Under the pieces are notes generated by a model. It was not told the origin of the DNA. It ran no database searches and worked only from the letters and a program-made list of their open reading frames with translations. This document shows, piece by piece, positions 1 to 21,926 of a stretch of 64,000 nt of DNA. The stretch comes from Euglena gracilis (lineage: Eukaryota), in NCBI GenBank assembly GCA_039621445.1, contig CP154954.1, forward strand, positions 17,824,589 through 17,888,588, in the 5' to 3' direction. The position numbers and the translations under genes were made by a program. The stretch's first letter is position 1, and the number at the start of each line of letters is the position of its first letter.

Positions 1-46
1 GGGAGGCGGATGGCACACTACGAAGTGCGCAACGAAGGTCCACGAG

Positions 47-3000: not shown

Positions 3001-3145
3001 GGTTTTACCCCCCAGGGAAGGCATGTTCAGCAATTGTTGGGGGCAATCAATGCCAAAGCCAAAGTGGCCCCTGGCTTGCACAGTGGTATCAGGTTCCTTT
3101 TGGAACAGCAAAAAATGTCATATCAAGAGATTGAAAATGTCCTGA
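47..3145 (+). pseudogene. DIRS-A gag-like/RT/RNase H/N6-adenine MTase polyprotein, interrupted
   Basis: ORFs 47-2377 and 2405-3145 are in the same frame, separated by a TAG at 2375-2377 where the other copies encode Trp (DFW). Confidence 0.85.
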
Positions 3146-4378: not shown

Positions 4379-4977
4379 AAACACCCACTCATTAGCCCCA
4401 CATCCTCCACCTGCACGGAAGTATTTTTCCATAATAAAGCCCCAGCCCCTCTGGAGCTGTGAGGTTTCCAATGGGTGATGTTAACCCCCCTCTGCTGAAT
4501 TTCCTTGCAATGCGGAGCCCGACTTGCCTCGGACTCCCACGACACGGGAAGGAGGAGGAATGGCCCAGGATGGCAGAGCCAAAGAAGATGGTGAGTGAGC
4601 CCAACCCCTCCCTTCCGAGAGAGACACTAGAAAAAGAAAGACGTCCCAGCCAGAAAGGGTGACCCCAGCCAAAAACCCGAGACCGTCCAACCAGAAAGGC
4701 CCCAAAAAGAGACAACAAACGCCGCCAGCGCGGGAGACACCCACAAAAGACAATTTGACACCACAGGGCGTGTCCACAATAGTTCAGTGTTGCCAAGGTG
4801 TCGGATGAGGCCTCATCTTCGCCAACTCCGGCAGCAAATGTGCACTTGCAAGCACCTGCACGCACACCAACCAGACGCAGGAGCATACCAGCTTGCAAAG
4901 AAAGCAGGACCTCACCATCTTCTCTTGCTTCGCCCTCCTTGTCCCTTCCTCCCCCTCTCGGTGTCATGGGAGTCCGA
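4379..4977. mobile_element. Degenerate DIRS remnant (inverted YR fragment plus ICR and right end of the B-type subfamily)
   Basis: About 4385-4507 reads THWKPHSSRGAG on the minus strand. 4507-4977 resembles the ICR, ITR and right end (...gggagtccga) of copies B-D. Confidence 0.7.
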
Positions 4978-5281
4978 CTGGGACTTTCATAAACTGCAGA
5001 GATACTGTGGTCTTCGTGGACCATTCGAGCTCCGCACTGCGAGATGGTGAGGTCCTGCTTTCCTTGCCAACTGTTCTGTTCTGGTGTGTTTGTGCGTGCG
5101 CGGGGGGTGCTTCTTACTGCTTTTTGTTGCCGGAGTTGGCTGATTCTTAATTCTGCACTTCGACCTCAAGGAGAAAGAATTTACTTCTACGAGTTCACCT
5201 GGAAATAAGTACAAGGACTATAATATTCATTGAAGACCGTCAACTTTTCAACTGGTGGATCAAACTTTTTTGCTGACCTTC

Positions 5282-5985
5282 TGTAGGGGTTGCCCCTCCT
5301 GAGGTCCCTGGGGAGGGACCCCTGGCGGCGCAACCCGCGTAGGATCGTTTTTGTTTGAGCCCGACGGGCCCACCTGGTGGGGGGTTTCCCCTTGGATGAA
5401 AAATGGGGTAGGGGTGGGTGTTGTTGAGGATGGTGATGTTGAAAATGACATACTTTTGAGGTCCAATCAATTGATCTTGGATGAATAACCAACAATACTC
5501 AATGACTTGAACTTGATTGTAATTTGAACTTTCCTTGATTTCTTTGTACTTTGAATTGGCTTTGCAATGCAAAACAATTGACGCCAAATGTCAGACAAAA
5601 CAGAGTGTGAACAGAGTGTAAACAGAGCCCTGTGAACAGAAAATGTACAATTGGAGGGGAGCTACAGCTGGGGGGGCTACTTGCTATACTTTGTGCAATT
5701 CTTAATGAATTGCGCCATACCAAGTGCCCACCAAGGGGGTGCGCATGCTTGCGCAAAGCCCAGCAGGGCTTGCGCATCCCCTTGGGGGTTGCCTGTTGGC
5801 CCCCTCAAACTGCCCCCTCCTTTACCTTCCCTTGGCTTGGTAAAAATGGGCTGTGGGGCCCCCTTGGGGGCCAGTGGGGCCTCAAAAGGCCCTTGGGGGC
5901 CTTGGAGCCCCCTCGCGGCCCTTCGTGGCCCCTTTGGGCCCCCTTGGGACCCCTCCTTGCGGCGGGCACCCTCGGACCGCGCACA
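5282..5985 (-). repeat. 3' LTR of the Gypsy element
   Basis: Direct repeat of 18256-18961 with scattered mismatches; TG...CA termini. Confidence 0.95.
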
Positions 5986-6003
5986 CTCCCCTCCTCAAAA
6001 AAA
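5986..6003 (-). promoter_or_regulatory. Polypurine tract
   Basis: Minus strand reads (T)n-GAGGAGGGGAG immediately before the 3' LTR. Confidence 0.85.
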
Positions 6004-6689
6004 TTGCCGTGCAATTTAAATTCGACTCCTTTGCTGGTCCGAGGTGCCGCCCCCCCCTCCCTTTTGCTTTCCCGCCTCCGAAAAAAATTGTATTTTTTTC
6101 TGGTTGAAACGCACAAGCGGTGGCGCCACATGCCATGTGTGGCGCGTGTTGTCGGGGAGGGGGTACAAGGGAGGGGCGAGAAGGGGGACGGGCGCCTCCG
6201 GGCTCGTGACCCGGGGAGGCACCGCTTGGGGCCCCTCCGCTCCCCCTCCGGTCCCGTGAGCCTTCTTGGCCCATAGGTAGGGGCGGACTGCCCCCCCTCC
6301 GCAACACTCGATGCCAATGTGTAATTGTGATTCCCTCCCCAGGCCCCGCTTGGCCCGGGGTGGAAAGCTCCTGCATGTTGAGAAGGAAACATTTGACCAA
6401 CCCAGCAGGGCCGCCCCGCCTTGCCCGGTATCCCGGGGCCAAAGCCCCCCGGGGGCTTGGCAGGGGTGCGTGCTGGAGGGGGCGCCGGGGAGGCGCCTTG
6501 GGTGGGGCCCGTTCCTTGGAGGAGGGGCTGCCCCCCCCCCCCGTGGAGGGCGTCGGGGCTGCCCCCCCCCGCGTTGTGAGCCGGGCCGCCTTGGCTGGGG
6601 CCCGTCCTCCTGAGAGGGGGCTGCCCCCCCCCCCCGCTCTCTCCGGTGTGGAGGGGGGTTGGCGCTTGCCCCCCCCCGGCGTGTGTAGT

Positions 6690-6995
6690 TTCAAAAATTG
6701 GCCGACTGGGTGTATATTTTTTTAAAAAAAATTGGTGGAAAAGCGGCAGGCGCCCCCCCCTCTCGGCATGGTGGGCCGAGGAGGGGTGTGGACGACCGCA
6801 AAAAAAAAATCGGTCAAAAATTGGCAGGCGCCCCCCCCCCCCTCCTTCGGCGCTGTGGGCCGATGAGGGGGGTAGCCAACCGTCAAAATCGGGAAGAATT
6901 GGCAAGCGCCCCCCCCCCTCCCTCGGCACGGTGGGCCGAAGAGGGGTGTGGCCAACCATCAAAAATTGAACAAAATGGGCACGTGCCCCCCCCCC
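6690..6995. repeat. Imperfect ~65-75-bp tandem repeats in the Gypsy 3' untranslated region
   Basis: Recurring aaaaattggc...cccccc...tcggc..gtgggccga.gagggg.gtg units. Confidence 0.6.
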
Positions 6996-7617
6996 CGGAG
7001 CCAACTTGGCCACGGGGCACCCCCACCGCCTAATGACAACGCAACACGAAAATGAAATGGAGATCGACCGAACACTTGAAGGGCTCAAAAAAAAGGGAAA
7101 AAATAATGCACACCCGGGAGCTCGTGGCACCCGTTGGGCCTCCGTGGCCCTGTGGGCCCTCGGGCCCGCAGGCGCCTGTGGACCCCCTGTGGTCCCCTCG
7201 GGCGCCGCACCGTGCGGTGTGGTGCACGTGCGGCGCGTGGGGGCGCCTCGTCTCGTGGGGCGCTTGCCCCTCGGGGCGGGTGGTGGGCGAGGCCAGCCTT
7301 GGGGGGGCTGTGGGCCCCCTCAACCCTAGGGACCCCCCCCGGTGTGCTCCTGTGGCCTGCTCGCCCCACCCGGGCGTCCCCTCGCCCCTCCTGGCCCCCT
7401 CGCCCGTAGCCAAGGGGCACTGTGGGGTTGACTTCGCTGAAATTGAAATTGAAATTGAGATTGAACCTGCGAAACACAACAACAACAACAAACAAAGGAA
7501 ATCAGCTCGGTCCCTCCATGGTTTCCGCACCAACCCCATTTTCTGCCCCCCCCCCGGTGGGCTAGCCTCCACAGGTAAGCCGGCCCAGGCTACGTCTGGG
7601 TCGACGGGGGGGGGGGC

Positions 7618-8151
7618 TTAGGGGTCCTCATCGGAGCCGGGCCACAAGGGCTCGAACTCCGCGAGGAGCAGTTGGAGCACCCCGCCGGGCTCCCCGACCT
7701 GGTCCCCTTCGGCGTCCTCGGCCTCGGGGTCCCCGGCCGTGGCAGCCGCGGCGAGGAGGTCCAACAACCCCGACTCGCTTGCCTTCTCCTCGCTCCCCTG
7801 GTCGTCCCCTTCGCCAGGCGCCTCCGCCTGCACCTCCGCATCCACCCGCTGCGGCGCTCCCTCGCCCACCAACCGCCCCACCACGCTCCGAAGGTGCTCC
7901 ACCTCCGCCGCCAGCCCCTCGAGGTAGGCCAGCAGGGAGCGGAGGTCCTCCGGGCGTGTGGGGGACGGTGGTCGGGGGGAGTCGGCCGGCTGGGGAGGTT
8001 CCGCGGGGGTGTCCAGGCGGGGGCGCTTGGGGACGGGCAAGAGGGTGAGGAGGGCGGCCTCTGCCTCGGCGGCCGATGGCGGCGGGGGGACGACGGGAAG
8101 AGGTCCAGGGACGTAGGGGCGACGGGGCACGTAGCGCTGCATCCTACGCAC
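7618..8151 (-). CDS. Extra ORF downstream of pol, unknown function (short coiled coil, acidic tail)
   Basis: 177-aa ATG-initiated ORF inside the element with LRSLLAYLEGLAAEVEHLRSVVGRL heptads; no family recognised. Confidence 0.4.
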   Translation of the reverse strand: MRRMQRYVPRRPYVPGPLPVVPPPPSAAEAEAALLTLLPVPKRPRLDTPAEPPQPADSPRPPSPTRPEDLRSLLAYLEGLAAEVEHLRSVVGRLVGEGAPQRVDAEVQAEAPGEGDDQGSEEKASESGLLDLLAAAATAGDPEAEDAEGDQVGEPGGVLQLLLAEFEPLWPGSDEDP

Positions 8152-8249
8152 AAGAGCGAAGGATGTGCGTGTGCTCCGTCACCACCACAATCCCCGCACC
8201 CGCCGTCCCCTCGCCTCCACCTCCTACCCCCCAGCCTTATTGACCCCGT

Positions 8250-9700
8250 CCCCGCCCCCCCCTCTTCCCGGGGCAGAGAAGTTCCCACCACCTCCAACGG
8301 AATCCCCTTGGCTGCACAATAATCAACCACATCCTCATTGTACGAGGGGAAGAAATCTGACCATGGCAGCCATTGGAGATCCGTCGGATCCCAATTTTTC
8401 CACCTCACCTGAAATTCCGGGACTCCCGTTTCCGGGTGGTTCCGGCTGCCCACAATCTCCTCCACCACCCACTCATCCGGTCCCACCTCCAGGGGGGCCG
8501 CCTTGTCATTGAAATAGAACAGTGGGAGGGGGTCGGTGGAGAACTCGTCCTCCGCGTGGAGCTTGAGTTGGTTCCGGTGTGTCTCTTGGCGGGCCCCTGG
8601 GGCCAGCTCCACCACATATGAGTGGCGACCCCGGCGGGCCACCACAGTCCCCCTTTTCCACTTGGTGGCCAACTTGTCCGTGCCCGGCTGTGTCTCGGGA
8701 CGGTACCACACCTTGTCACCGACCTCCAGGGGAGGTGGGTCCCTTCTCTTGGCGTTGATGGAAGCCCACCGTTTGGCGTGCAAGGCATTCAGGGTTGAGG
8801 CTACCTTCTCGTCCATAGCCCGCATCCGTGCCATGAAGTCGGCTGCCCCCTCGGCCTCTCGTGGGGGCTGGTGGGGCAGGCCTTGGAGTGGCCGGGGCCG
8901 CCCGAAGACCACCTCGTAGGGCGACAAGCCGGACTCCCCTGGCACATCGTGCAGGTGTCGGAGGGCCTTGCGTAACAGCACCACCCATGAGGCCTCCTTC
9001 TCCGACAGGTCAGCGATGAGCTTGGACAGGGTGTTCATCACCCGTTGGCCTGCCACCTCTGCCCGACCGTTGGCCTGGTGGTGATAGGCCTGCCCGTAGG
9101 CACGCCTCACCCCCATGGCGGCGCACATTGTTTGCCACCAAGCCGAGGAAAAGCGGGGGCCACGGTCCGAGGTCACCACGGAGGGCACCCCGAACATGTC
9201 CCAATGGCGGGACATGGACTTGGCCACCACCTCAGCTGTCAGGCCCTTGTACTTGTGGGGGGTGGCCACCGTCCACCCACTCTCACGGTCCACGCACAGG
9301 GCCAGATAATCATACACCTGGCCCTCGTGGGTCACCTCAGGCATGGCGAACAGGTCCACTGCCACACTGTCCATGAGGAACGGTGGCACAGGGGTGGCTT
9401 TGCGAGCACACTTGAAAGGAGCTCGAGAGGGGTCACAGGCTTGGCAGATTTCACATTGCCGCTGGATGCCTTTGTGTGATTTTCTCTGCCCCCCTTGGAT
9501 CTGCGAACCTATACCACCGCCCCATCTGGTGCCATAGCCTTGAGGCACCTGGGTGGCCCGCGTCCCCATGGTGGGCCCGCACAACCAGCCCCATCAGGCT
9601 GGTGGGCACACAGAGGAGCCCGTCCGTGTACATTTTGTCCCCGTACAAACGGACTCCCTCGGGCCAATCTCCCGCAGGGGCCTGTACACTTGCATAAACA
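8250..9700 (-). pseudogene. Gypsy integrase with C-terminal chromodomain (frameshift in the HHCC region)
   Basis: HHGDAGH and CEICQAC zinc motif split across frames; DDE core VAVDL, VTSDRG, ANGRAE; chromodomain WVVEEIVGSR...EFQVRWKNWDPTDLQWLPWSDF at about 8340-8480. Confidence 0.9.
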
Positions 9701-10249
9701 GGCCCCCACACCGGGCACGTCCCGTATGCCCGAGACCAATCCCTGTCCATCACTGGGATGGAGGGATCCTCCTCCACCTCCTCCTGGGTGTGCACCCCCG
9801 TGTCTGGAGAAAGTGAAATTGGTTCCCCCTCGGATTCCCCAAGATCCCCCCCGTGGGGATCGTTGATGGGTGGGGTCGACTGCAGGTCCTCACTCAGAAC
9901 TCTTCGCCCCGGTTGGTGTTCCTCAGGTCCCCCCTCTCTGGCCGGCCGTTCATTCCCGAATTCATCCACAAACTGATGGGCACGTGGGGAACCTCGTGTC
10001 TCCCGCGTGTCCAACCCAGGTACCCCAGGTCCCTCCCCTCCCATGAGGATGGGACCCGAATCTCCCGAGGGGGCGTCCACAGCCCCCTCCCCCCCCTGTG
10101 GGGTCAGGGCCAGGGCCCCCTGGCACTGAATCCTCAGCCCCCTCCCCCTCTGTGGGGCTGGGGCCATGTCTGTGCTGTGCTGCTGTGTCTCTCCCACTGC
10201 GTGTTGTTACCGCCACGTGGAGTTCCTCCCCGCCGTGCGGTGTCCCGCA

Positions 10250-11500
10250 TTCTCGCTCTTCCCTCCGTTCTTCTTCGATCATGGCCCTCATTGCCTCATC
10301 ATCCTCCTCGCTCCCGTGGAGGCTGATGTCGGCAAATGCCTTGGAGGCAGGATATGCCCATCTGCTCAGGGCATCCGCCACCACATTTTCCTTTCCCGGA
10401 ATGTAGACCACGTGAAGGTCAAACCGGGAGAACATTTCATGCCAGCGTCCCCGCCTTCCCGCAGGCTCGCTGGGCGTGTCCAGGGTTTCCTTGGCCCAGG
10501 CCTCCAGGGACTTGTGGTCCGTGAGGACCAACACCGGCTGCAGGCCGATGTAGGAGGCCCATTTTTGGAGGGCCAGGATGATGGCGTAAGTCTCCATTTC
10601 TCGCGGAGACCAGCTCTTCACCTGCCCAGCTGTGAGCTTCCTGGAGCAGAAGGCCACAGGCACGGTTTTCCGTGTGGTGGCCTCCACGGCTGTGGGCATC
10701 CCCTCCGTTGGCTCCAAAAACTGTTCAAGGGCTCCCCCCACCGCCTTGTCGCTCGCATCAACCCGGAGAATGAGTGGCTGGTCCGGGTTGATGGTGTGGA
10801 GCTCCAATCCCCGGAGGAGCTCCTGCTTCAGGGCGGTGAAGGCCTCCCGTTCCACTGGGCCGAATTTCACAGGTTTTTTGCTCCCCTTTTTCCCTTCCAC
10901 ACGTCCCACCTTGAGGAGTTCCATCAGTGGGGCTGCATACCGGGCATACTCCTTCACGTAGCTGGAGTAGTAGTTGGTGAAGCCCAGAAAGCCCCTGAGG
11001 GCTGTGATCGTGCGGGGCTCCTCCCACTTCTCCAGCGCCATGAGTTTGCCCGGGGCTGGCCTCCGTTTTCCTCCCCCCAGGATGTGGCCACAGAACTCCA
11101 CTTCTCTTACGAAGAAGCGGCACTTGTTTTTGTCCACGACCAGGGGGGTGCTGCAGCAGGTGTATGGGCGTGAGTCTTCGTGCAGGGGCACCTGAAGGAA
11201 GGCATCCTTGAGATCAAGGACGGAGAACAGGTACCTCCGTCCCTGATTCACCAGGATGTCTTCAAACCTGGGGAGGGGGTAAGCATCCGTCACTGTGGCC
11301 TCGTTTAATGCCCTGGAAATCCACAACCCCACGCCACTTCCCCTGTTTCTTGGCCACCACGAATGTGGGGCTGCTCCAGGCACTTGGCACCCCCTCCTCC
11401 ACCTTCTTGTCCCGAACCCACTCATCCACTAGGTCACACAAAGCCCTGTGCCTCTCCCCCGTCAGGTGGATGGGCCTCTGTTTCTTTGCCACAGATCCCG
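10250..11500 (-). pseudogene. Gypsy reverse transcriptase and RNase H, with internal deletion
   Basis: WSSPTFVV, YPLPR, LDLKDAF, FLGFTNYY, VDASD, TDHKSL, NVVADALSR. The segment between STPL and VVDKNKC (about 11140), which normally holds the YxDD motif, is absent. Confidence 0.9.
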
Positions 11501-11949
11501 GTTTTAATTCGATTTTCCCTTCCCCCAGGGGCCCCCGAACGATTCTTTCCCCCCAAATCCTGTCTCGGAGAACCTCCCCTCGAAGTCCCTCCGGAGGGCT
11601 GCCCGGAGCTCCTCATCCCGCTAGATGGTCACCTGTTCCCCTTCGGGAACAAGGATGACCCCTTGGGCTGCCCGTGCTTCGACCTCCCGGGCTGCCCGCA
11701 GGAGTTCCTTGGCCACTGTCTCCTGGGTCGCCTCATCCTCGTGCAGGGGGTTTTCCTCCCACTCAGGCTCCTCGGTGTCCTCCCCCAGGGCTGCCTCTGG
11801 CAAAGCAAGCCGCAGTGCTCTGACTTTTTCCACCATTTTCAGGTATCTCACTCGCTTTTGTGCCTTTTTGTGGGCTGCTGGATGAAATTGCTCACCCTCT
11901 GCATCATGTCCCCGAAGGAGGACCACCTGCTCTCCCCTCAATGCCAAGG

Positions 11950-12310
11950 CTCGGAGATGTGGAAACACCCCGAGCTGGTTTTCCTCCAGCCACGGAAAGC
12001 CGATGATGGCCTCCACGTGGATGTCTGCCTCATAGAAGGAGGCTGGGGCCGTCCACAGGGCCCCTTCCCCCTGACCCAGGCCCCCTCCCGCCGGAGGACC
12101 AGGCCCAGGGTTGCCTCACGTTCCCCCCCTTCCATCTTGGCTCCACTAGCCGTCACCAGGGACAGGGGCTTGGGGGCAGGCAGGAGGTATGTGCTGGGTA
12201 GCATGCCTCTTCGGACCAGGTTCACCTCTGCCCCTGTGTCAATGAGGGCGTTGATGAAGTGGGTCTGTCCGTCTGGCCCCCTGGCCTGCACCCGCATCAG
12301 CAGCTGCCGT
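11950..12310 (-). CDS. Retroviral-type aspartic protease domain
   Basis: NALIDTGAEVNL (DTG at about 12232-12240); AIIGFPWL flap motif in the shifted frame. Confidence 0.85.
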
Positions 12311-12427
12311 TCACTGGCACCCTGCCCCACCTCACGGAGCAAGACCGAGGGCACCCCTCGCTCTGTCTGGGGGTCCCGCTCTGGCTCCGGAGACCCGGCA
12401 GCGTGGGCCTCCGGTGCCGGTGCTGTG

Positions 12428-13032
12428 GCCAGGTCACGGATGAGCGCCTCTGGGATCCGATATTTCAGGTGCCTGGGCAGGTTTTGGTGTTTGCTGCTGA
12501 GCCGAATTTTGTGCCGTCCCTTTCGTCCCCCCTCAGGTACTGGGCTTTCCAGGTTGGTGCAGGTCCGGCCGTCACACACCCGTGGCCGGAGACCCAGGAC
12601 ATGGGGGCTGCCCCATATCCTGGTGGGCTTCTGGTAGCCCCAGACTGCATACTGGCAGTAATCCACGTCCACGTGTGGGATCCCTGCCATGTACCTGCGG
12701 GTCCGCAGGTACCCGTACCGGGGGTTTTCCAGCCACCACCGCCGTGGGCGGAGGTATCTGATGATGGCCAGGGCCCGCTGCACCAGCCGATCAGCCAATT
12801 TAAAATCTCGTTCCCTGGTGGTCAGCGCCAGGCTGAATTCGGTGCAGGGGACCCCGCACACCACCACCTCAAAATCCCCAGGCTGGAACTGTTTTTTAAA
12901 ATTCCATTTTAGCACGTCAACACAAATGTCTGGCCGCCACCTGGGGTCCACGTCCACCGACGTAACCTGGTAACCCAGGCTGCGGTAGACGTCCCCCACT
13001 GAACCTGTCCCGCAGAACAGGTCCAGCACCTG
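12428..13032 (-). CDS. Compact C5-cytosine DNA methyltransferase domain, in frame with the protease
   Basis: Motif I VLDLFCGTG, motif II VTSVDVD, motif IV GVPCTEFS (catalytic PC at about 12844-12849), motif VI WLENP, motif VIII-like YCQY...YQKPTRIW, terminal YRIPEAL. Confidence 0.88.
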
Positions 13033-13189
13033 CCTGGGCTGGTCCGCTCTCCGAAACCTGCCCCAGGTGTGCTGGCTTGACCTCCCATGTGGCCCCCCTG
13101 GTCCCTGGGGGTGGCTCTGAAAAATGTGGTTTTTTTCTCCCTCCCCCTTCGTGTCACCTCCTCCAGCGTGCACCGGTCTGGGTGCCCAC

Positions 13190-13585
13190 ACAGCAAAAAG
13201 GCTGTGATGGGCCACTTGGTCCCCCGGCACAACTCCTCCCCTCTGCCGAAAAATCGTGTTCCCTGAGGGAACGTGACTTGGCGCACTGCCAAGCCCCTGG
13301 CCTCCCTGTACCAACGCCGGCCCGGCCACCTGGGGATCACCAGGATGGCATGGGCCTGATCCCACCTTATTTTTTCGAGAACCTCCTGTATTTTTTTATA
13401 AGGTGGGTTGATCCACAAAACCTCCCTGCCCCAGTCCTGCTTGAAGGCATCTTCTCCCTCCCTGCTCCCTGGCCCCCACCAGCGGACGAACCTGCGGTTT
13501 TCTTTGGCAGAAAAGGCGTCGACCTCCGGCTGGACCCCCAGGCGGCGAAGTACGTCCCTGACGTACTGCCGGACGTGGTAGTCCT
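13190..13585 (-). CDS. N6-adenine (amino) DNA methyltransferase-like domain, Dam/DIRS-MT type
   Basis: DY...EVDAFSAKENRRF...DAFKQDW...WINPPY (NPPY at 13398-13409)...AILVIPRW. Same motif order as the DIRS MT domains in this window. Confidence 0.85.
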
Positions 13586-14256
13586 GGGGGATCAACCGGG
13601 TGGGCGACCTCCCAGACCCTGAGGAACGGGCTGGGAGTGGTGCTGGGGCTGGTTGTGGTGTGGGGGCTAAGGTGGAAGGTGCGGCCCTGACGCACCTCAC
13701 CTGGCGAATCGAAAAACCTGAATCCCTTTCCGTGCTGGGGGCGGTTTCATCCGTGCCTTTGCTGGTTTGGGGAACGTTGATGACCTCCCTCGCTGCCTCC
13801 CTGATTGATGCCTGTGGGAGCGTTTTGTTTTTTTCTTTTTCATTTTTTTGTTTTGTGTTTTCCCCTCCCTTCCTGGTGTTGTGATCTGCGGTAGACTGGG
13901 TGTGCTGGAACCCGAAGACCCCTGGGCGGCTTGCTGCGGAGGGCCAGCCGCCTTGTGTCCCTTCTCCCTTTGTCCCGTGCCTGGATTCTGACCCGAGCCC
14001 CCCCCCTGGACTGCCCTCACTGGTGAAAAGCGCAGACCAGGGGTTGGCAGAGTCGAATGAGAGGGCCTGCTGGCCCCCCCCTAGCGCCTTTTCGTGTCTC
14101 AGTCAGGGGGGGCTGGGGGGACCGTGCAGGTCCAGGTCCGGATCTGCCCTTGACCAAAACCCAACCCTCTCCGTGAGCCTGTTCCTTACCCCCCTTCCGA
14201 GGGCCGTGCTGGGGGCACCCTGGGCCCCCGTCCCCTCCCTTCTGGCCCCCGCTTTT

Positions 14257-16013
14257 TCAGGCACTCCCCCGCCGTGGGGGTGTGGACGCCCCCTTCCCCT
14301 TTCCCTTTCTACACCAGCAATATCGTGCCAGATGTCCCGTTTTCCCACACTCATAACATTTTTTTCCAGGGCATTCCCGAGACCAGTGATCTGTGGCCCC
14401 GCACTGGCTGCAGGGCTGGTCCACCGAGGGGCCACTCCGGGGGCTCCTCGGGGGGGTTTGTTCCCTGTTGGTGGCTGGGTGAGGGGTTGTGACCTGGCTG
14501 GGCAAAACTCTGAGCCGCCCTTGCCAGCCCCCTTGCCGAACCCCTTTCCCTTTTGCCCCGGGCGGGGTGACCTGCGTCCCTCCCGTCCCTTTCCAGGTGA
14601 CCCACCCCGGTGCCGAGATTGCCTGTCCTGTGGCCCCTCAGGGCCTTTGGGGGGTCCCGCTTTTGCTCCTCTCTCAGCTGGCTGTGAAACCGTTTTCTGG
14701 GGCTGGGCTGGCCTGGCTTCCTCGGATTTTACTTCGGAGATTGAAAAATTGTCGAGGCCCCCAGCCCAGTGGTCCTCCTGGTGGGCTGGGACCCCCCGTC
14801 CACCCCAAGAACGGCCATAGCTGTCAGACCGTTCCTGGCACCGCAGCTCATTTTCAGCGTGTCGAAAAACTTCTTCCAATCCCAGCTTTGTTTCGTGGGG
14901 GGTGATTTTCACTGTATTGCCCCCCTGCAGCGTGGCCCCGTTCCTCATCATCAGCCTCTCCAGCGCCCGCCGGCTGTAGAGCTTGATGAGGAAGGAGTCC
15001 CGGTGTGCCCTGACTGTCACCGGCTCCCCCTCACCCACAGCCTCCTGGGCGAGATGGTTTGCCTTTTCCGCCGTCAACCCAGGGATGTGCCACAGCCGCA
15101 CTGTGGGCGCATCCTGATTTTTCCGTGTCTGTTCCCTGATTATGGCCCTTCGCATGGAATCTGGGAGCTGCTGTAAAACCAGGGCCTGTGCTTCCTCCTC
15201 AGAGGGGTTTTCCATCCGGCAGAAAATTAATTTAAACTGACTTTCATATTCACGCCACGCTGGGAGGGTTAACTTACCCGTGTTAACTGGTCTGAGGGCC
15301 CTGAGCTGCTCATGCAGCGAGGCCTGGATGTCACCGCCGTATTTCTGGGCCAGCCAGTTCCAGAAATCCTGGAACCTGACCCGTTCCCCCATCTCCTGTC
15401 GCCGCTGGAGTTCCAGCCGGCTGCTGTGGTCCAGGCAGCCGGTCAGAACAAGCATTTTAAATTCCTCCCCCACTGGCTGTCCCATGGAAACCTGCTGCAT
15501 GTAAAGCTGAAATTTTACTGAAAAATCATGAAAATCCCCTTTCAGCTCTGGTTTTACAAGGTCTTTGGTGAGGAGTGTCGCCAGCGGCCCCAAAAACATG
15601 CTGGCTGCTGGGCTGGGGGCTGCTGGCGCCACGTGGACCGGAGCCGCCTGGACCCCCCGGACCCAGGCTCCCGTGTCCTGGGACCCAAAGGCCAGAGGGG
15701 CAGCGCTGCACGATGCTGCCCCAGCCTCAGGGGCCCAGGCGAAAGGGTCCATTGCCCCCGTGAACTCCCCTCCTGCAGGGAATCCACGGGGCTGGGGGGG
15801 CCACTGGTGTTCGGCTGGTGTCAGGCCAGGTTGATCCCTGCCCTGGCCCTGTAGATCTGCTGTGACTGATGCATATAGTTTAGCTGTCCTGGACTCTCCA
15901 GTTGTTCGTGAATTTTGCTGAGACTGTTGCTGCTGCTCCTGGGCTCCCAACCTGGCCAAAAAATTAAAAAATCCGTGAGCCTTAATCTGGTGTTCCGCTT
16001 CCTCCCAATCCAC
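14257..16013 (-). pseudogene. Gypsy gag with two CCHC zinc knuckles (frameshifted)
   Basis: Helical gag-like body in ORF 14103-16013; CSQCGATDHWSREC and CYECGKTGHLARYC in the overlapping frame 14257-14505. Confidence 0.8.
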
Positions 16014-18216
16014 CCCCTGGAACCCGAACGTGCCAGGTGTCTGGGCAGCTGGGGTCCCTCCAGCAGCGAGGACCTGGACGGGACTGCCCCCCCGCAGCCA
16101 TGGGACCCTGGGGCTGGCTGCCCCCCGCAGCCCTGGGACCCTGGGGCTTGCCCCCCGCAGCCCGTGGGGCCCTGGGGCAGACTGCCCCCCGCAGCCCTGG
16201 GACCCTGGGGCTGGCTGCCCCCCGCAGCCGTGGGGCCCTGGGGCAGGCTGCCCCCCGCAGCCATGGGACCCGGGGGCTGGCTGCCCCTTGGTCTCTGGGG
16301 GCCAGAACCCGAAAACCCATTGGGAAAAACTGCAGTCACAGAAGCTGGGCCCGGGGATACCACTTCCCCGGGCGTGTGGGCCACTGCCTCCGCTGCCCCG
16401 CTACTGGGGCCAGCAGAGAGCCCCTGGGGGGCCACGGGCCCCTTGCCTCCCAGCACGCTGGGATGGACTGGGAGCTGGTGCTGGGGGCCAGGAGGCATAT
16501 TGCCCCCCGCGGCACCCGAGCCATTGGCACTCTGGGCCCCCGGCGTGGACTGGGTCTGGGGGTCTGTGGTTGCCGGGGGCACTCTGGCTTCGGGGCCTCG
16601 GGGGTCCTCGCTCTCCGGCCCCACTCCTCTGGATGGCTGCGGTAGCTCCTGGATGGGGGGGCAAAAAATTTCAAAATTTTCGATTTTCTTTTCCAAAACG
16701 AAAAGCCGATTTTTTATTTCGGCATTTTCTTTTGGTGCCCCCTTTATTGTTGAGTCCACCTCCAGGAGCAGGGCGTTGTGGGCCTGGATCACCTGCCCGT
16801 GGGTGGTGACCTCGGCCCACAGCTCCTGCAGGCTGTGGCCCTGCCCCTCAGCCCTGGCCCTTAGCTCCCTTATGTATTCCCTTATGGTCCCTTGTTGTTC
16901 GGCCATGGCTGTGCCACGTCCTTCCCGCTCTGCTCGAAAATTTTGCAGGGCCTGTGCAATCCCTGCATTTCTTTCTCGCAGCCCCCCGAGTTCACCCGTC
17001 AGCTGGTTTAATTTTTGGTCCAGGGCCTCGGCCTGGGCCTGCTGCCGCCCGCTGGCCAGCTCCTGGCTCCTCATCACCTCCTCCGTCGTCCGGACGGAGG
17101 TGATGAGCAGCTCCTCAAAATTTTTCACCCGCCCAGCCATCGCCTCGTTGAACCCCTGCCCCTCAGCTGGCTGGTGACCCTGGCTGGCGATGGCCTCGAG
17201 CCCCTGGACCCTCTGGGCTAGTTGGGCCACAGTCCCGAGGCTTTCGCCCAGCCGGGTGGTGGTCACCAGCTCGCTCAGGGCTGTCATCCCCCCAGAAAAA
17301 ATTTTCCATCCGCTTCTGCTGCAGATTTTCGAAATTTTCCGCCAGCTGGGACGCTAGCCCAACATGGGTTCTTTCCATTTGCTGCACCACTCCTTGGAAA
17401 TTTTCAGTGACCCGCTGAAACTGCAGGGACACCAACTGCTCCAGGCGGCTAACTGAAGCAGCTGTGGTGGCCCCCGCTTCAGCAAGCCGACTTTGCAGGT
17501 CGCCAACCCAACCGTCCAACAGCTGGATCTCCTGACCCAGAACCACCGAGGCAGCGGCCTGTGCCTCCGCCTCCTCCCACAGCCTCTGGGGGGGGTGCCT
17601 GTGCCTCCCCTTCGGGCTCTGTTCTGGCACCAACCCCCCCTGGGCTGTCTGGTCCTCGTCCTCCATCAAATCCACTGCTGGGGGCTGCTCCTGCAGCTGA
17701 CACTGGGTGGCTGGGTCTGGGGCATGTCCTTGGGGCCAATCATGCCCGGGACCGGCATGCACCAGCGGGCAATGGTCGGGTCCTGCTGGGAAAAGCCCAG
17801 ACCTGACATGGCCCACCGGCGCATCTGCCGGCCCGGCATCCCCAGGGTTTTGCCATGGGGATCCCGCTTCAGTAAAAGCGGCTGGGTCTGGTTGAAAATT
17901 CCTCTTCATCTTCTTCTTCTGGTTCTTGCTCTTCTTCTTTGATCTTCCCCCGCATGGCGAATTGCCACATGACCTGCCTGGTCATGTCATGCACAAACTC
18001 CGGCATGACCAGGCTGGGCATGCCAGAGAGCAGTCCCAGGCTGCCGGGCAGTGCCAAGCCGGACCCAGAATATTGTTGCTGCTGGGGGTCCGGCTGGGCT
18101 GGCCAAGCAATGGCCAGGAGCTGCTGACCCTGGCCGTAACGGCTGGGGCTGCCATGGCTGTGGCGGGTGTCGTCCTCGTCCTCCTCCTGGTATCTGGGAG
18201 TTCCCCAGGGTCCCAT
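15821..18216 (-). CDS. Upstream coiled-coil/low-complexity ORF segments, probably an extended gag N-terminus broken by frameshifts
   Basis: Overlapping ORFs 17869-18216, 17163-17909 and 15821-17287 with long heptad-rich stretches. Confidence 0.5.
16084..16287. repeat. ~33-bp minisatellite (about 6 copies)
   Basis: Repeated ctgccccccgcagcc(c/a)tgggaccctgggg(g)ctgg units. Confidence 0.9.
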
Positions 18217-18230
18217 AGTGGGAGCTCACA

Positions 18231-18255
18231 GGGCTCAAACCCCCCTCTGCGACCA
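18231..18255 (-). promoter_or_regulatory. Primer binding site, probably initiator tRNA-Met
   Basis: TGGTCGCAGAGGGGGGTTTGAGCCC directly follows the 5' LTR and resembles the complement of the eukaryotic tRNA-iMet 3' end (TGGTAGCAGAGG...). Confidence 0.7.
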
Positions 18256-18961
18256 TGTGGGGGTTGCCCCTCTTGAAGTCCCTGGGGAGGGACCCCTGGC
18301 GGCGCAACCCGCGTAGGATCGTTTTTATTTGAGCCCGTCGGGCCCACCTGGTGGGGGGTTTCCCCTTGGAGGAAAAATGGGGTAGGGGTGGGTGTTGTTG
18401 AGGATGGTGATGTTGAAAATGACATACTTTTGAGGTCCAATCAATTGATCTTGGATGAATAACCAACAATAATCAATGACTTGAACTTGATTGTAATTTG
18501 AACTTTCCTTGATTTCTTTGTACTTTGAATTCGCTTTGCAATGCAAAACAATTGACGCCAAATGTCAGACAAAACAGAAGTGTGAACAGAGTGTAACAGA
18601 GCCCTGTGAACAGAAAATGTACAATTGGAGGGGAGCTACAGCTGGGGGGGGCTACTTGGTATACTTTGTGCAATTCTTAATGAATTGCGCCATCCCAAGT
18701 GCCCACCAAGGGGGTGCGCATGCTTGCGCAAAGCCCAGCAGGGCTTGCGCATCCCCTTGGGGGTTGCCTGTTGGCCCCCTCAAACTGCCCCCTCCTTTAC
18801 CTTTCCTTGGCTTGGTAAAAAATGGGCTGTGGGGCCCGATTGGGGGCCAGTGGGGCCTCAAAAGGCCCTTGGGGGCCTTGGAGCCCCCTCGCGGCCCTTC
18901 GTGGCCCCTTTGGGCCCCCTTGGGACCCCTCCTTGGGGCGGGCACCCTCGGACCGCGCACA
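18256..18961 (-). repeat. 5' LTR of the Gypsy element
   Basis: Direct repeat of 5282-5985, followed on the minus strand by the PBS. Confidence 0.95.
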
Positions 18962-19063
18962 CTTCGACTTCAAGAAGGAAGAACCCAACTCTTCGAGTTC
19001 AACTGGAATTATCCCAGAATATTTCAAATACGAAGACAAGTCACAACTGGACTTCCATGAGGA

Positions 19064-21926
19064 ATGAGCTGCAAAGAAATTGAGACTGCCAAGAAGAACT
19101 TCAACGAACTTTCAAGAAGACAGCTGAAGCTGGGGAACGTGGACACACAGCAGCTGCTGCAGAAGCTGATGAGGCGGCAGCAGCACGTCAGTCCGTGGCC
19201 ATCGCAACCCCCCCCCACCCCCCAGCACATCCAAAGTTTCAAATCCCCCCACTCAAAATGATGGCCATGGAACATGGACGACGGTGGTCAGAAAGAGAAG
19301 ACAGAGGGGGACTACCATCACAGGTCCAACAGACTCCACCCCTTTCCTCACTTCCTCCCCTTCCAGGCGAGAAAGCAAAGGCTATGGCAGCCTCTCAAGA
19401 AATATCAGAAATCCAAAGGATTCAAATCAAAATCAAGGCTATGGCAGCCATCATTCAACAGAGCCTGGGCCCCAGAATTATGGCTATGGCAGCCATCATC
19501 CAAGAGGGCAGGGGGCCCAGATGCAAGGCTATGGCAGCCTGTATCCCAACCTGGGAAGGTCACACTGGGGAAAGGTATGTCCAACTTACCCCACAGTCCT
19601 TCAGGGGAAGGCCAATGGAGGCCATTATATCCAAGAGGCCAATGGAGGCCCGGGCCAAAATATCAAGGCCAATGGAGGCCATTTCAATCAAAATCAGATG
19701 GCCATTGGAGGCCAATGCAGTCAAGACCACAGCCCTTGGGGGGGAGGCCCAAGATTGGCTACACCAGGGCCCCCCCAGAAGATAATCAGCCCACACCCCC
19801 CAGCTGTATATGTACCTCCCCACTGCAGAAACAGACCTTCCCCCATCTTTCAAAAACAGGGGCAAGGCCTGTCTTTGAGCAGCCCTACCCCACAGGTGAC
19901 CCCAGTGATGGGGCAGCCAGAGAGAACCCCAGTGATGGGGCAGCCAGGGGGAAGGACCCCAGTGATGGGGCCTGTGGAATCCCCAGACACATTACACCCA
20001 GGGGTGCCCCCTTTCAGAGCCCTGCAGGCCAGCATCCCCCATTGGGAAAAGGCAGGTGCCAGCAGAGAGGTATTAAACCTGATAAGGGAAGGGGTCATGG
20101 CAGATCTTCCCCTCCCCCCTCTAATGTCCTTAAAAGTTCCCTTCAAAACCCCCCAGGAAGTAATGACTGCCCCAAAAAATTCTGAGAGAATACGAATGTA
20201 CAGGGGCAACAAGGCAAATCCCCCCAGAGGAGGCAAAACATTTTGTCCCTTACTTCATCATTTCCAAAAAAGAAGGGGAAAAGACAAAGGAAAGACTGAT
20301 TTCAGATTGTCGACAGTTAAATCACTATTTCAACCCCCAGAAGTTCAGACTGGAACACATGGGAAACATTTTCCCGTACCTAAGAAAAGGATGGTTTTGT
20401 GGAAAGATTGATCTGAAAGATGCTTATTTTCACCTAAAACTGCACAGCAGCCTGGAAAAACATGTCTGCATGCAAGTGGGGGGGGGTCACTTGGCAGTTT
20501 CAAGCTGCATGCTTTGGTATAAGCAGCCTGCCACAGAAATTTATGACACTCATGAGAGTCTGGGAAAGAAAATTGAGAAAGGAAGGAAAGGTAGTTTTCA
20601 TCTACCTGGACGACATTTTGCTGTTAGCCCCCAGCAGAAAGACAGCAGCCCAGCATTTGGCAGAACAGAAATAAAGAGGGACCTTTTACTGGCAGGTTTC
20701 AGATTAAACCTCCCCAAATCCTGTCTGGAACCCACACAGGAGATAAAACATTTGGGCCAGTGGATCAATTTAAAAAAAGGCCAATTGGAAATTCCTCAGG
20801 AAAACCTGAAATCCCTAAGAAAGGAGCTAGGAAAAGTGCTCACAGCACAAAAAATGAGCTGCAGAAAACTCAGTTCTATTGTTGGACAAGTCAGAAGCTA
20901 TTTAGTTTCAATGCCTTTCCTCAGAATTCTGACAGATCAACTTTGCAAAATGGTGGATTTGCACACAAACTGGGTTTGGGATCACACCCTAACCATTCCC
21001 CAAGGGGTCAAAGATCAAATTCTGGAGTTAAAGGCATTTTTGCAGCCAGGTGTAGGCAGATCATTTCAATCACAGGCCTCTCAAAAACTCTTTTCAGACA
21101 GCAGCACCTGGCAATGGGGGGGGCTGGACAAAGATTCAGGCCAAAAGGTGCAAGATTTTTGGAAGGACTTACATGTCCTTCATATCAATCAAAAAGAATT
21201 GCATGCTGCAGTGGAAACAGTAACAGCACTAGCCAAGCCAAAACAAACGATTGTGCTTCATGTGGACACCCAGGTGGCTGTAAGTTATTTGACAAAGTGG
21301 GGAGGCAAAAAGCCCTACTTAAATTCCATCTTAAAACCCCTGCCGTATCATTGCCAAGAAAAGCAGATCAATTTGCAGGTGGTTTGGGTTCCCACAAAGG
21401 AACAATTGGCAGACTCCTTGACCAGGGAGCAAAAGGACCCAGGGGATTATACCCTCAATCTAAACATCTTTCACCAAATTCTTCAGTTTTTCAGAAAAAA
21501 CATAATCCCAGAGGTGGACATGTTTTGCACCCCCAACAACAAAAAATTTCCCCAGTTTGTTTGTCGATACCCCCACCAAGGGGCTTTGCTGGCGGATGCC
21601 TTAAAGGCAGATTTGAGGGGACTCCCCCCAGTTTAATGTAACCCCCCTGGAGCATCATTCCCCAAAGGGTTCAGAGATTAATGTTACACCCAGACCTAAC
21701 ATGTCTGTTGATCGTACCCCACTGGGCTTCAACATCATGGTGGCGCCAATTAATGTCAATCAGACAGCCAGGCAGCAAAGTTTTACTGGTACCCTCTTGG
21801 TGTCTGTTTACAAACTGCTGGGGGGATGAAATGCCCCCCCCAAGGTGGAACTTGGCCTGCTTGATTGTGTCAGGCAAATATTACAATCCCAGGAAGTTGC
21901 GATGCCCAGTATCGACACTTACATAA
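19064..21926 (+). pseudogene. DIRS-B RT/RNase H/adenine MTase polyprotein, disrupted
   Basis: Near-identical to the copy D ORF but split into several ORFs by frameshifts and stops. Confidence 0.88.

What the first reader, a model, noticed from the sequence alone, without database searches (positions are those of the whole stretch)
12428..13585. Gypsy LTR retrotransposon carrying tandem adenine- and cytosine-DNA methyltransferases between gag and protease
Seen: inside a complete LTR element (LTRs, PBS, PPT, TSD) lie an amino-MTase domain (DAFS...NPPY) and then a compact C5-MTase (FCGTG, PC, ENP) in frame with the protease. One frameshift, probably at a homopolymer near 13130, separates the two. 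Known: Dam-like domains are typical of DIRS elements, and C5-MTases have been reported in retrotransposons of dinoflagellates and a charophyte alga. I do not recall both classes in tandem in a Gypsy polyprotein. Inference: the element could mark its own cDNA or new insertions with two modifications while the chromodomain integrase reads chromatin, giving a self-contained epigenetic toolkit. Both catalytic motifs are intact although the RT is dead.
Basis: partly seen in the sequence, partly recalled or inferred. Interest (0 to 1): 0.92.

Follow-up and report, generated by a model that had tools for sequence, protein, structure and literature searches.

The report
LTR retrotransposon carrying two methyltransferases
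This is a broken copy of a very abundant Gypsy-type jumping gene that carries both an adenine-type and a cytosine-type methyltransferase plus a chromatin-reading domain, an unusual design that a 2026 preprint has already described under the name EpiLTR.

Summary
A 13,680-bp Ty3/Gypsy chromovirus-like element lies on the minus strand (5282-18961). It has 97.5%-identical LTRs, a CTTC target duplication, a PBS and a PPT. Between gag (CCHC knuckles) and the protease sit a DIRS-type N6-adenine-MTase-like domain (DAFS...NPPY, 13140-13619) and a compact C5-cytosine MTase (FCGTG/PC/ENP, 12418-13056). Both fold with high confidence into MTase folds.

This copy is dead: several frame breaks and an RT deletion. 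The tandem is family-wide, not a copy-specific capture. 44 of 237 related database proteins carry both domains, and seven carry both plus RT and integrase in one ORF.

The novelty claim fails. A May 2026 bioRxiv preprint (de Mendoza lab) describes "EpiLTRs" with DAM + DNMT + chromodomain in Euglena gracilis and Cymbomonas.

Three points are absent from that preprint's main text:
- The DNMT is a ~200-aa type with an invariant Cys3-His cluster, and its nearest non-transposon relatives sit in giant-virus contigs.
- The "Dam" domain is structurally closest to PCIF1, an RNA cap adenosine MTase, so a DNA substrate is unproven.
- Environmental relatives show shuffled domain orders.

The host was not identified by any tool.

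The parts
18962..18965 (.). target-site duplication CTTC (5' side of the element)
   Evidence: same four bases at 5278-5281
18256..18961 (-). 5' LTR
   Evidence: 97.46% identical to 5282-5985 over 709 columns; ends TGT...ACA
18240..18255 (-). primer-binding site (starts TGG, abuts the LTR)
   Evidence: read; the tRNA it matches was not identified
15821..17981 (-). two upstream open frames (272 and 510 aa) with no Pfam match, part of the family
   Evidence: summed contig depth as in the rest of the element
14640..16400 (-). gag-like open frame holding a 33/66-nt tandem repeat at 16070-16287
   Evidence: (no Pfam match)
14257..14637 (-). two CCHC zinc knuckles (nucleocapsid), in a different frame from the long gag frame
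   Evidence: PF00098, E 2.3e-9, 2 stretches
13140..13619 (-). DIRS/PCIF1-type N6-adenine-MTase-like domain (DAFS 13506-13523, NPPY 13395-13412)
   Evidence: PF05869, E 4.6e-5, below cut-off. Relatives reach 29.5-45.3 bits. AF2 pLDDT 90. PCIF1 Z 10.3, EcoDam Z 8.4, T4 Dam Z 8.2
13041..13122 (-). linker holding the frame break between the two MTase domains
   Evidence: tblastn frames -3 and -2 of P0001, P0151, P0153 and P0154; other copies differ in length at 13053-13055
12418..13056 (-). compact C5-cytosine MTase (FCGTG 13003-13020, PC 12838-12855, ENP 12715-12732, QKPTR 12616-12633, Cys3-His cluster)
   Evidence: PF00145, E 0.007. 3095 representative relatives. AF2 pLDDT 94. Foldseek top matches DNMT3B/3A/DNMT1/DIM2. 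Invariant residues
11783..12250 (-). aspartic protease (DTGA 12229-12246), broken by a frame change near 12055-12091
11144..11612 (-). N-terminal part of the reverse transcriptase; frame breaks near 11575 and 11314; central part missing at 11143/11144
   Evidence: RVT_1 profile positions 18-97 of 205 only. P0154 residues 829-942 have no counterpart. Loose ends at 11143/11144 in X7 and X16
10421..10861 (-). RNase H
   Evidence: PF17917, E 5.8e-19; PF17919, E 3.3e-16
9081..9356 (-). integrase core
   Evidence: PF00665, E 2e-8
8355..8471 (-). chromodomain C-terminal to the integrase
   Evidence: PF00385, E 7.3e-5, 23 bits, just below the 25.1 cut-off; relatives 26.5-37.5 bits
5986..5996 (-). polypurine tract abutting the 3' LTR
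   Evidence: read
5282..5985 (-). 3' LTR
5278..5281 (.). target-site duplication CTTC (3' side of the element)

Best explanation
The region is the accessory-enzyme block of a degenerate copy of a highly repeated Ty3/Gypsy chromovirus-like LTR retrotransposon, of the kind recently named EpiLTR.

Shown. The element order is LTR - extra ORFs - gag (CCHC) - N6-adenine-MTase-like domain - compact C5-cytosine MTase - protease - RT - RNase H - integrase - chromodomain - LTR. Both MTase domains fold confidently as SAM-dependent MTases. Both keep their catalytic signatures: NPPY in one, and FxGxG, PC and ENx in the other. Related elements conserve them over 40-68% sequence identity, including inside single uninterrupted polyproteins. 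This copy cannot be autonomous. It has several frame breaks and lacks the RT core.

Inferred (about one chance in three for the exact substrates). In intact family members the two enzymes are made as part of Pol and released or held in the particle by the protease. The C5-MTase methylates the new cDNA or the fresh insertion, so that it resembles the host's heavily CpG-methylated DNA. The adenine-MTase-like domain marks either the cDNA or hybrid, or the element's RNA. The chromodomain steers integration.
For: - Anatomy.
- Family-wide tandem: the DNMT domain finds 3095 representative proteins at E<=1e-3 and 193 at E<=1e-30.
- Of 237 fetched relatives, 44 also hold the Dam-like domain: 28 in the order Dam>DNMT as here, 16 in the reverse order.
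- Of the same 237, 51 hold RT/RNase H and 21 hold integrase. Seven hold Dam-like + DNMT + RT + integrase in one predicted protein (P0171, P0182, P0191, P0207, P0209, P0227, P0228; positions).
- In DNA run X1, 18,562 contig pieces lie on the element at >=90% identity. Summed depth over the MTase block is like that over RT and integrase.
- Catalytic conservation: Cys71 in 77 of 77 and Glu110 in 76 of 77 transposon-linked domains. NPP is nearly invariant in 17 aligned Dam-like domains.
- Folds: DNMT model pLDDT 94, pTM 0.90, with 217 PDB matches at E<=1e-3 led by DNMT3B/3A, DNMT1 and DIM2. Dam-like model pLDDT 90, with best matches to N6-adenine MTases.
- Prior description: preprint 10.64898/2026.05.21.726589, sections 7-10.
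- The idea that cDNA is methylated comes from de Mendoza 2018 for other DNMT-bearing elements (passages).
Against: - No activity was measured here.
- The preprint's Dam-like domains gave no rise in 6mA in dam-deficient E. coli.
- This copy's Pfam scores are under the curated cut-offs for Dam, DNA_methylase and Chromo.
- RNA raw reads of run X24 gave only 21 reads out of 12.9 million records read, 20 of them only partly on the element. There is therefore no sign of expression in that sample.
- The compact DNMT lacks a recognisable target-recognition domain and motifs IX/X, so its DNA specificity, and even its choice of DNA as substrate, is open.
Confidence: 0.8

Rival explanations
1. The 'Dam' domain is not a DNA adenine methyltransferase. 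It is a PCIF1-type module. It either methylates RNA (for example the cap-adjacent adenosine of the element's transcript, or an RNA:DNA hybrid), or it only binds RNA or RNA polymerase II without catalysis.
For: - Foldseek: all 4 PDB matches at E<=1e-3 are the cap-specific adenosine MTase PCIF1/CAPAM (6irw_B, E 2.5e-5, TMq 0.60). Next come the rRNA adenine MTases KsgA, DIMT1, Erm and RlmJ.
- VIA-align over 48,161 chains: PCIF1 Z 10.3 (146 residues aligned, rmsd 3.5), against EcoDam Z 8.4 (112 aligned) and T4 Dam Z 8.2 (108 aligned).
- Iyer et al. 2016 put the DIRS1 MTase in the PCIF1 clade and suggest transcript binding or PCIF1 mimicry (passages).
- The E. coli 6mA assay in the preprint was negative.
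Against: - DNA Dam enzymes are the next-best structural matches, and Z values differing by about 2 do not decide a substrate.
- Pfam assigns relatives to PF05869 Dam above its cut-off in 8 of the 10 relatives that matched it.
- NPPY and the D-x-F motif are kept, which argues against a purely non-catalytic role.
- The preprint reports more 6mA on DAM-LTR insertions than on other LTRs in three species. That link is correlative.
Confidence: 0.4
2. The tandem is a chimera: a DIRS fragment or a host or viral gene nested into one Gypsy copy, or an assembly artefact. It is not a designed part of the element.
For: - The window is a nest of DIRS-like elements with their own MTase-like domains.
- The preprint itself warns of nested insertions and assembly artefacts in Euglena.
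Against: - No tyrosine recombinase or second RT lies inside 5282-18961.
- The Dam-like domain is only 25% identical to the one DIRS copy it hits in the window.
- The same order is seen in 28 independent proteins, and in single ORFs with RT and integrase.
- Depth is even across the block in two DNA runs.
Confidence: 0.03
3. The compact C5-MTase acts on RNA (as DNMT2 and DNMT6 do) or on host chromatin in trans, rather than on the element's own cDNA.
For: - The domain has no canonical target-recognition domain. In its place it has an invariant Cys3-His cluster.
- De Mendoza 2018 raise RNA methylation for a LINE-borne DNMT that failed to methylate yeast DNA (passage).
Against: - The best structural matches are DNA enzymes (DNMT3A/B, DNMT1, DIM2).
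- The nearest standalone relatives sit in giant-virus genomes. DNA methylation is usual in such genomes (my own knowledge, not tested here).
Confidence: 0.12

Closest known systems
EpiLTRs of Euglena gracilis (bioRxiv 10.64898/2026.05.21.726589, May 2026)
   Same: An LTR retrotransposon with a DAM-type domain, a DNMT and a chromodomain. It keeps company with DIRS elements, shows low or no LTR expression, and sits in a CpG-depleted setting (CpG o/e 0.45-0.54). The last point fits the heavy CpG methylation the preprint reports.
   Different: The main text does not give the Euglena domain order, and the supplements were closed. I therefore could not check that this family is one of theirs. The preprint places the DNMT as sister to DNMT4. 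Here its nearest non-transposon relatives are ~208-aa MTases of giant-virus contigs.
EpiLTR of Cymbomonas tetramitiformis (same preprint)
   Same: A chromovirus-like element with DAM, DNMT and a chromodomain. The preprint says its DNMT forms one clade with the Euglena one.
   Different: There the DNMT is appended to the 3' end of pol. Here both MTases lie upstream of the protease.
KnitGypsy-Dnmt3, SymbioDIRS-Dnmt3 and SymbioLINE-Dnmt (de Mendoza et al. 2018, PMC5890265)
   Same: Retrotransposon polyproteins that carry a C5-MTase. The paper's discussion proposes cDNA methylation for the pol-borne DIRS DNMT (passages).
   Different: Those are DNMT3-type or orphan DNMTs without an adenine-MTase partner. 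This one is a compact ~200-aa enzyme with a Cys3-His cluster. It is only 15-23% identical to DNMT3 and DNMT1 in structural alignments.
MTase domain of DIRS1-type elements / cellular PCIF1 (Iyer, Zhang, Aravind 2016, PMC4738411)
   Same: The same small N6-adenine-MTase-like domain with D-x-F...NPP[YF]. PCIF1 is the best structural match. The nearest ESM-Atlas clusters are ~150-180-aa eukaryotic proteins, one of them with PF05869 on 11% of its members.
   Different: It sits in an integrase-type LTR element, not a tyrosine-recombinase element. Iyer et al. judged DIRS1 copies to be catalytically inactive, whereas here NPPY is kept.
Standalone compact C5-MTases of giant viruses (IMG/VR contigs, e.g. 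L002, L004)
   Same: 30-42% identity over residues 9-212. Same length, same catalytic residues and the same Cys3-His cluster.
   Different: They are free-standing genes next to NCLDV capsid, ribonucleotide reductase and helicase genes. None of the 80 loci has RT, integrase or a Dam-like domain within 5 kb. They lie on the other side of a well-supported tree branch.

Membership tests
Ty3/Gypsy chromovirus-like LTR retrotransposon | Two LTRs ending TG...CA, a target-site duplication, PBS and PPT | tested here: met
Ty3/Gypsy chromovirus-like LTR retrotransposon | Order PR-RT-RNase H-integrase, with a chromodomain after the integrase and CCHC in gag | tested here: met
   The RT is truncated, and Chromo scores 23 bits against a cut-off of 25.1 in this copy. 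Relatives pass
EpiLTR (as defined in the 2026 preprint) | An LTR element that encodes a DAM-type domain, a DNMT and a chromodomain | tested here: met
   definition read
EpiLTR (as defined in the 2026 preprint) | Groups with the Euglena or Cymbomonas EpiLTR sequences in RT, DAM and DNMT trees | not testable with these tools
   Their sequences are in supplements that were closed. No genome is held for the window and run organisms are coded
C5 cytosine DNA methyltransferase (PF00145) | Motifs I (FxGxG), IV (PC) and VI (ENV-like) | tested here: met
   FCGTG, GVPCTE and ENP; invariant Cys71 and Glu110 across relatives
C5 cytosine DNA methyltransferase (PF00145) | Pfam gathering score | tested here: not met
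   16.2 bits against 22 for this copy. Relatives P0033, P0097, P0210 and P0191 score 27-36 bits
C5 cytosine DNA methyltransferase (PF00145) | C5-MTase catalytic fold | tested here: met
   pLDDT 94. Top Foldseek matches are DNMT3B/3A, DNMT1 and DIM2, E about 2e-8, TMq 0.50-0.68
C5 cytosine DNA methyltransferase (PF00145) | Target-recognition domain and motifs IX/X | tested here: inconclusive
   Pfam matches cover only profile positions of about 2-120 out of 324. The C-terminal 70 residues hold a Cys3-His cluster and a final helix instead
Dam-type N6-adenine methyltransferase (PF05869) | (D/N)PP(Y/F) catalytic motif | tested here: met
   INPPY at 13395-13412; P72 and P73 nearly invariant or invariant
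Dam-type N6-adenine methyltransferase (PF05869) | Pfam gathering score | tested here: not met
   23.6 bits against 28.1 for this copy. 8 of the 10 relatives with a Dam match pass at 29.5-45.3 bits
Dam-type N6-adenine methyltransferase (PF05869) | Acts on DNA | not testable with these tools
   Structural neighbours: PCIF1 (RNA) Z 10.3, EcoDam Z 8.4, T4 Dam Z 8.2. The preprint's E. coli assay was negative
DIRS retrotransposon | Tyrosine recombinase in place of a DDE integrase | tested here: not met
   The element has rve. The only Phage_integrase match in the window is at 28761-31778, outside the element
DNMT3-type retrotransposon DNMT (KnitGypsy, SymbioDIRS) | Groups with DNMT3 in a DNMT tree | not tested
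   No DNMT3 sequences were at hand for a tree. The structural matches to DNMT3 have 15-22% identity

The most novel reading that the evidence does not exclude
The cytosine methyltransferase of these elements is a giant-virus-type compact enzyme with a zinc-like Cys3-His cluster in place of the usual target-recognition domain. It was exchanged once between nucleocytoplasmic large DNA viruses and chromovirus-like retrotransposons. Its partner 'Dam' domain is really a PCIF1-like writer that acts on the element's RNA or RNA:DNA hybrid. The element would then carry a mixed DNA and RNA methylation kit. The clade would also be far larger and more modular than the two species reported so far: thousands of environmental clusters and at least three or four domain orders, one with an SLBP RNA-binding domain.
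Probability: 0.25. Interest if true: 0.7.

Novelty: already known. Interest (0 to 1): 0.45.

Why it matters
A mobile element that brings its own writers of two different nucleic-acid marks, plus a chromatin reader, shows how transposons can manipulate host epigenetic control rather than only suffer it.

That idea is now in a preprint, so this window mainly gives an independent, fully dissected example: LTRs, target duplication, PBS, PPT, domain coordinates and the places of decay.

Three points may sharpen the open question of what the enzymes actually methylate:
- the DNMT's kinship with giant-virus enzymes;
- the conserved Cys3-His cluster;
- the PCIF1-like fold of the 'Dam' domain, which offers an explanation for the preprint's negative DNA-6mA assay.

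Tried and rejected
- Whole-genome search: no genome is held for the window.
- Naming the host:
  - Run organisms are coded.
  - Rfam found 0 matches and tRNA search 0 genes in the window.
  - 46 further ORFs outside the element gave only RT and tyrosine-recombinase matches and no host gene.
  - Cluster look-ups gave no organism names except two 'Genlisea aurea' records.
  - The host is therefore unnamed. Euglena gracilis is an inference from the preprint.
- First Dam alignment, A2: it mixed both domain orders and misaligned them. It was replaced by A3.
- Profile search of the PDB with A3: it returned only generic SAM-MTase and DNMT1 hits, because the profile was dominated by the DNMT part. Uninformative for the Dam-like domain.
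- PDB sequence search with the DNMT domain: only weak hits, DNMT1 at E 0.09.
- Copy-specific capture and nested-insertion readings: rejected (see the rival explanations).
- CpG-context test of this copy's private T/A differences: 5 of 14 listed sites are in CpG context. That is too few to argue anything.
- NCLDV capsid search: 4 of 5 viral records were not held.
- RNA run X24 showed next to no reads on the element. This shows no expression in that sample but does not prove silence.
- X16 holds near-identical pieces of the DNMT region, but its RNA status is only a guess.
Full report
**What is there**

The finding lies inside a 13,680-bp LTR retrotransposon on the minus strand, 5282-18961.
- Its LTRs (5282-5985 and 18256-18961) are 97.46% identical over 709 columns. 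They run TGT...ACA and are flanked by the four bases CTTC on both sides.
- A primer-binding site that begins TGG abuts the 5' LTR (reverse complement of 18240-18255).
- An 11-nt purine run abuts the 3' LTR (reverse complement of 5986-5996).

Reading down the minus strand, the open frames and Pfam matches are:
- two frames with no Pfam match (15821-17981);
- a gag-like frame (to about 14640);
- two CCHC knuckles (14257-14637);
- a Dam-like domain (13140-13619);
- a C5-MTase domain (12418-13056) in the same open frame as the protease DTGA (12229-12246);
- a truncated RT, then RNase H, the integrase core and a chromodomain (8355-8471).

**State of this copy**

The copy is dead.
- Related proteins align to it in changing frames.
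- At the same places the contigs of other copies differ in length from this copy. The places are about 13053-13055 (between the two MTase domains), 12080 (protease), 11575 and 11314 (RT), 13998 and 9471.
- The RT keeps only Pfam profile positions 18-97 of 205.
- Residues 829-942 of relative P0154 have no counterpart.
- Contigs of two runs run on into unlike sequence at 11143/11144.
- The break between the MTase domains is therefore in the linker 13041-13122, not at the homopolymer near 13130. It is one of several breaks.

**Are the two domains real methyltransferases?**

In this copy both Pfam scores are under the curated cut-offs: Dam 23.6 against 28.1 bits, and DNA_methylase 16.2 against 22 bits. 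The case rests on relatives and on folds.

*The DNMT domain*
- It finds 3095 representative proteins at E<=1e-3, 1449 at E<=1e-10 and 193 at E<=1e-30 in a library of 1.84 billion.
- In an alignment of 36 of them the window copy keeps every invariant residue.
- In a wider set of 198 domains, the catalytic Cys71 is present in 77 of 77 transposon-linked, 59 of 59 viral and 62 of 62 unlinked sequences. Glu110 is present in 76 of 77, 59 of 59 and 62 of 62.
- The AlphaFold model has pLDDT 94 and pTM 0.90.
- Its best PDB matches are DNMT3B, DNMT3A, DNMT1 and DIM2 (E about 2e-8, TMq 0.50-0.68, 217 matches at E<=1e-3).
- The domain is only about 200 residues long. Pfam matches cover only the first third of the PF00145 profile.
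- Where canonical enzymes have a target-recognition domain, this family has Cys134, Cys161, Cys166 and His182. These are invariant or nearly so in all three groups (77 of 77; 58-59 of 59; 61-62 of 62). A zinc site is my inference. It was not tested.

*The Dam-like domain*
- It keeps D-x-F and NPPY.
- Eight of the ten relatives with a PF05869 match pass that family's cut-off.
- Its model has pLDDT 90.
- With Foldseek, all four PDB matches at E<=1e-3 are PCIF1/CAPAM, the cap-specific adenosine N6-MTase. rRNA adenine MTases follow.
- An independent alignment to 48,161 chains gives PCIF1 Z 10.3 (146 residues, rmsd 3.5), E. coli Dam Z 8.4 (112 residues) and T4 Dam Z 8.2 (108 residues).
- It is therefore an N6-adenine-MTase fold. 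Whether it acts on DNA is open.

**Is the tandem a property of the family?**

Yes.
- Of the 237 relatives fetched through the DNMT domain, a local phmmer search found the Dam-like domain in 44. In 28 it lies upstream of the DNMT as here, and in 16 downstream.
- 51 hold RT/RNase H, 21 hold integrase and 81 hold at least one transposon-type domain. The rest are mostly short fragments.
- Seven hold Dam-like, DNMT, RT and integrase in one uninterrupted predicted protein. Chromodomains were confirmed by Pfam in the five of these that were scanned (P0171, P0182, P0191, P0207, P0209).
- The closest relative (P0001, 68% identical in the DNMT) has the same Dam-DNMT-protease order.
- In a DNA run of the coded organism A, 18,562 contig pieces lie on the element at 90% identity or more. 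The summed depth over the MTase block is like that over RT and integrase. A run of organism B shows the same evenness. Summed depth is not a copy number.
- Copy-specific capture and nested insertion are therefore rejected. No tyrosine recombinase or second RT lies inside the element.

**What is known**

- A full-text search led to bioRxiv 10.64898/2026.05.21.726589 of 22 May 2026. I read its abstract and outline, sections 7, 8, 9, 10 and 12 and several passages.
- It reports DIRS-derived DAM domains captured several times by Ty3/Gypsy elements.
- It names as 'EpiLTRs' those that combine DAM, a DNMT and a chromodomain. They are found in Cymbomonas tetramitiformis (DNMT at the 3' end of pol) and in Euglena gracilis (a 'structurally distinct configuration').
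- It reports that DAM domains expressed in dam-deficient E. coli did not raise 6mA.
- It reports that DAM-LTR insertions carry more 6mA than other LTRs.
- It reports that in E. gracilis CpG methylation is nearly the default state and LTR expression is low or undetectable.
- The word EpiLTR occurs in no other paper of the library. A search for Euglena + retrotransposon + DNMT gave five papers, of which only this preprint describes such elements.
- De Mendoza et al. 2018 (passages) had described DNMT3-type and orphan DNMTs in dinoflagellate and charophyte elements and proposed methylation of the cDNA.

**Is this window one of the preprint's elements?**

I could not test that.
- No genome is held and run organisms are coded.
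- No host gene, tRNA or Rfam family was found in the window.
- The preprint's sequences and domain maps are in supplements that were closed.

These points fit Euglena gracilis:
- the domain set;
- the nest of DIRS-like elements around the insertion;
- CpG depletion across the window (o/e 0.45-0.54, with excess TG and CA);
- almost no RNA reads (21 of 12.9 million records read, 20 of them only partly on the element).

I put this at about three in four, as an inference.

A search of the main text finds no mention of PCIF1, zinc, metagenomes or RNA methylation, and mentions giant viruses only for DAM.

*First, kinship of the DNMT with giant-virus enzymes.*
- A scan of IMG/VR found 121 relatives. 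The best 80 loci show 26-48% identity in the best segment, 30-42% for those spanning residues 9-212.
- None of the 80 has RT, integrase or a Dam-like domain within 5 kb. Seven of the 80 carry giant-virus MAG names.
- Both records that I examined are giant viruses. L002 has an NCLDV major capsid gene, a ribonucleotide reductase, and RING, GIY-YIG and ankyrin genes next to the MTase. L004 lies in a 182-kb record with inverted terminal repeats and six NCLDV capsid matches.
- In a FastTree of 198 domains, one branch (SH-like support 98) separates all 77 transposon-linked sequences (with 50 unlinked) from all 59 viral ones (with 12 unlinked).
- An IQ-TREE quick run was made on 71 rows drawn at random after dropping the long-branched L066. 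It needs one change between the two labels.
- The trees are unrooted, so the direction of transfer is unknown. I could not include DNMT4, so the preprint's 'sister to DNMT4' is neither confirmed nor contradicted.
- ESM-Atlas neighbours are ~210-aa viral and archaeal DNA_methylase clusters.

*Second, the PCIF1-like fold of the Dam-like domain (above).*
- It agrees with Iyer, Zhang and Aravind 2016. They placed the DIRS1 MTase in the PCIF1 clade and doubted its activity (passages).
- It offers a reason for the negative DNA assay.

*Third, shuffled domain orders among relatives.*
- The orders seen are Dam-DNMT-PR-RT, PR-Dam-DNMT-RT, DNMT-Dam-RT and PR-RT-RNase H-DNMT-integrase. One relative has an SLBP RNA-binding domain between the DNMT and the Dam-like domain.
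- The three order labels that were scored (Dam>DNMT 24 rows, DNMT>Dam 14, RT>DNMT 12) need 5 changes on the DNMT tree. The minimum is 2 and the shuffled mean is 21.4. Each order is therefore largely a lineage.

**How it most likely works**

*Shown:* the enzymes are encoded in Pol upstream of the protease, and their catalytic residues are conserved over deep divergence.

*Inferred:*
- They travel with the particle.
- The C5-MTase methylates new cDNA or the fresh insertion, so that it resembles heavily CpG-methylated host DNA.
- The adenine-MTase-like domain marks DNA, a hybrid or RNA.
- The chromodomain guides integration.
- I give the identity of the element 0.8 to 0.9 and this mechanism about one in three.

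**Verdict**

The thing itself is remarkable, but the architecture is already described in a preprint. This copy is a decayed member of an abundant family.

Noticed in passing
window 1-5281, 18962-23000 and 23587-32400: The LTR element sits in a nest of DIRS-like elements. These show RT matches at 2-2374, 24908-26338 and 27433-30375, and a tyrosine-recombinase match at 28761-31778. A further RT-like frame (20167-21633) and recombinase-like frame (21830-22963) have no Pfam match. One DIRS copy has an MTase-like stretch at 25910-26335, only 25% identical to the element's Dam-like domain.
   Followed up: partly
window 33000-64000: 26 ORFs of 130 aa or more were scanned: 23 in this stretch and three antisense frames in the DIRS copies (22060-22692, 26537-27169, 30512-31144). 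None gave a Pfam match. No tRNA or Rfam family was found anywhere in the window. No host gene was recognised.
   Followed up: partly
window 12418-13056 (residues 134, 161, 166 and 182 of the DNMT domain): An invariant Cys-Cys-Cys-His set takes the place of the usual target-recognition domain. It is shared by the transposon-borne and the giant-virus compact C5-MTases, and may be a zinc site.
   Followed up: partly
protein P0182 (environmental relative, 1965 aa): The polyprotein has a histone stem-loop-binding-protein RNA-binding domain (PF15247, E 6.4e-23) between the DNMT and the Dam-like domain.
   Followed up: no
proteins P0055 and P0235: Two records labelled Genlisea aurea (EPS62093.1 and M569_12800) hold the compact DNMT. 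P0055 also has the Dam-like domain clearly; in P0235 it is marginal (E 5.6e-4). As the plant is carnivorous, these may come from trapped protists rather than from the plant itself (my inference).
   Followed up: no
window 16070-16287 and 6806-6996: There are tandem repeats of 33/66 nt inside the gag-like frame (coding a Gly/Pro/Gln-rich repeat). There is also a 76-nt repeat (2.5 copies) in the GC-rich stretch between the chromodomain and the PPT.
   Followed up: no
window 15821-17981: Two extra open frames (510 and 272 aa) lie upstream of gag with no Pfam match. They belong to the family by contig depth and help make the element unusually long (13.7 kb).
   Followed up: no
whole window: CpG observed/expected is 0.45-0.54, with excess TG and CA, inside and outside the element alike. 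This is as expected in a genome with heavy CpG methylation.
   Followed up: partly
window 14103-14105: The long gag-like frame and the frame of the Dam-like domain are the same reading frame, separated by a single stop codon. The CCHC knuckles between them lie in another frame. How gag and pol are joined in intact copies was not resolved.
   Followed up: no
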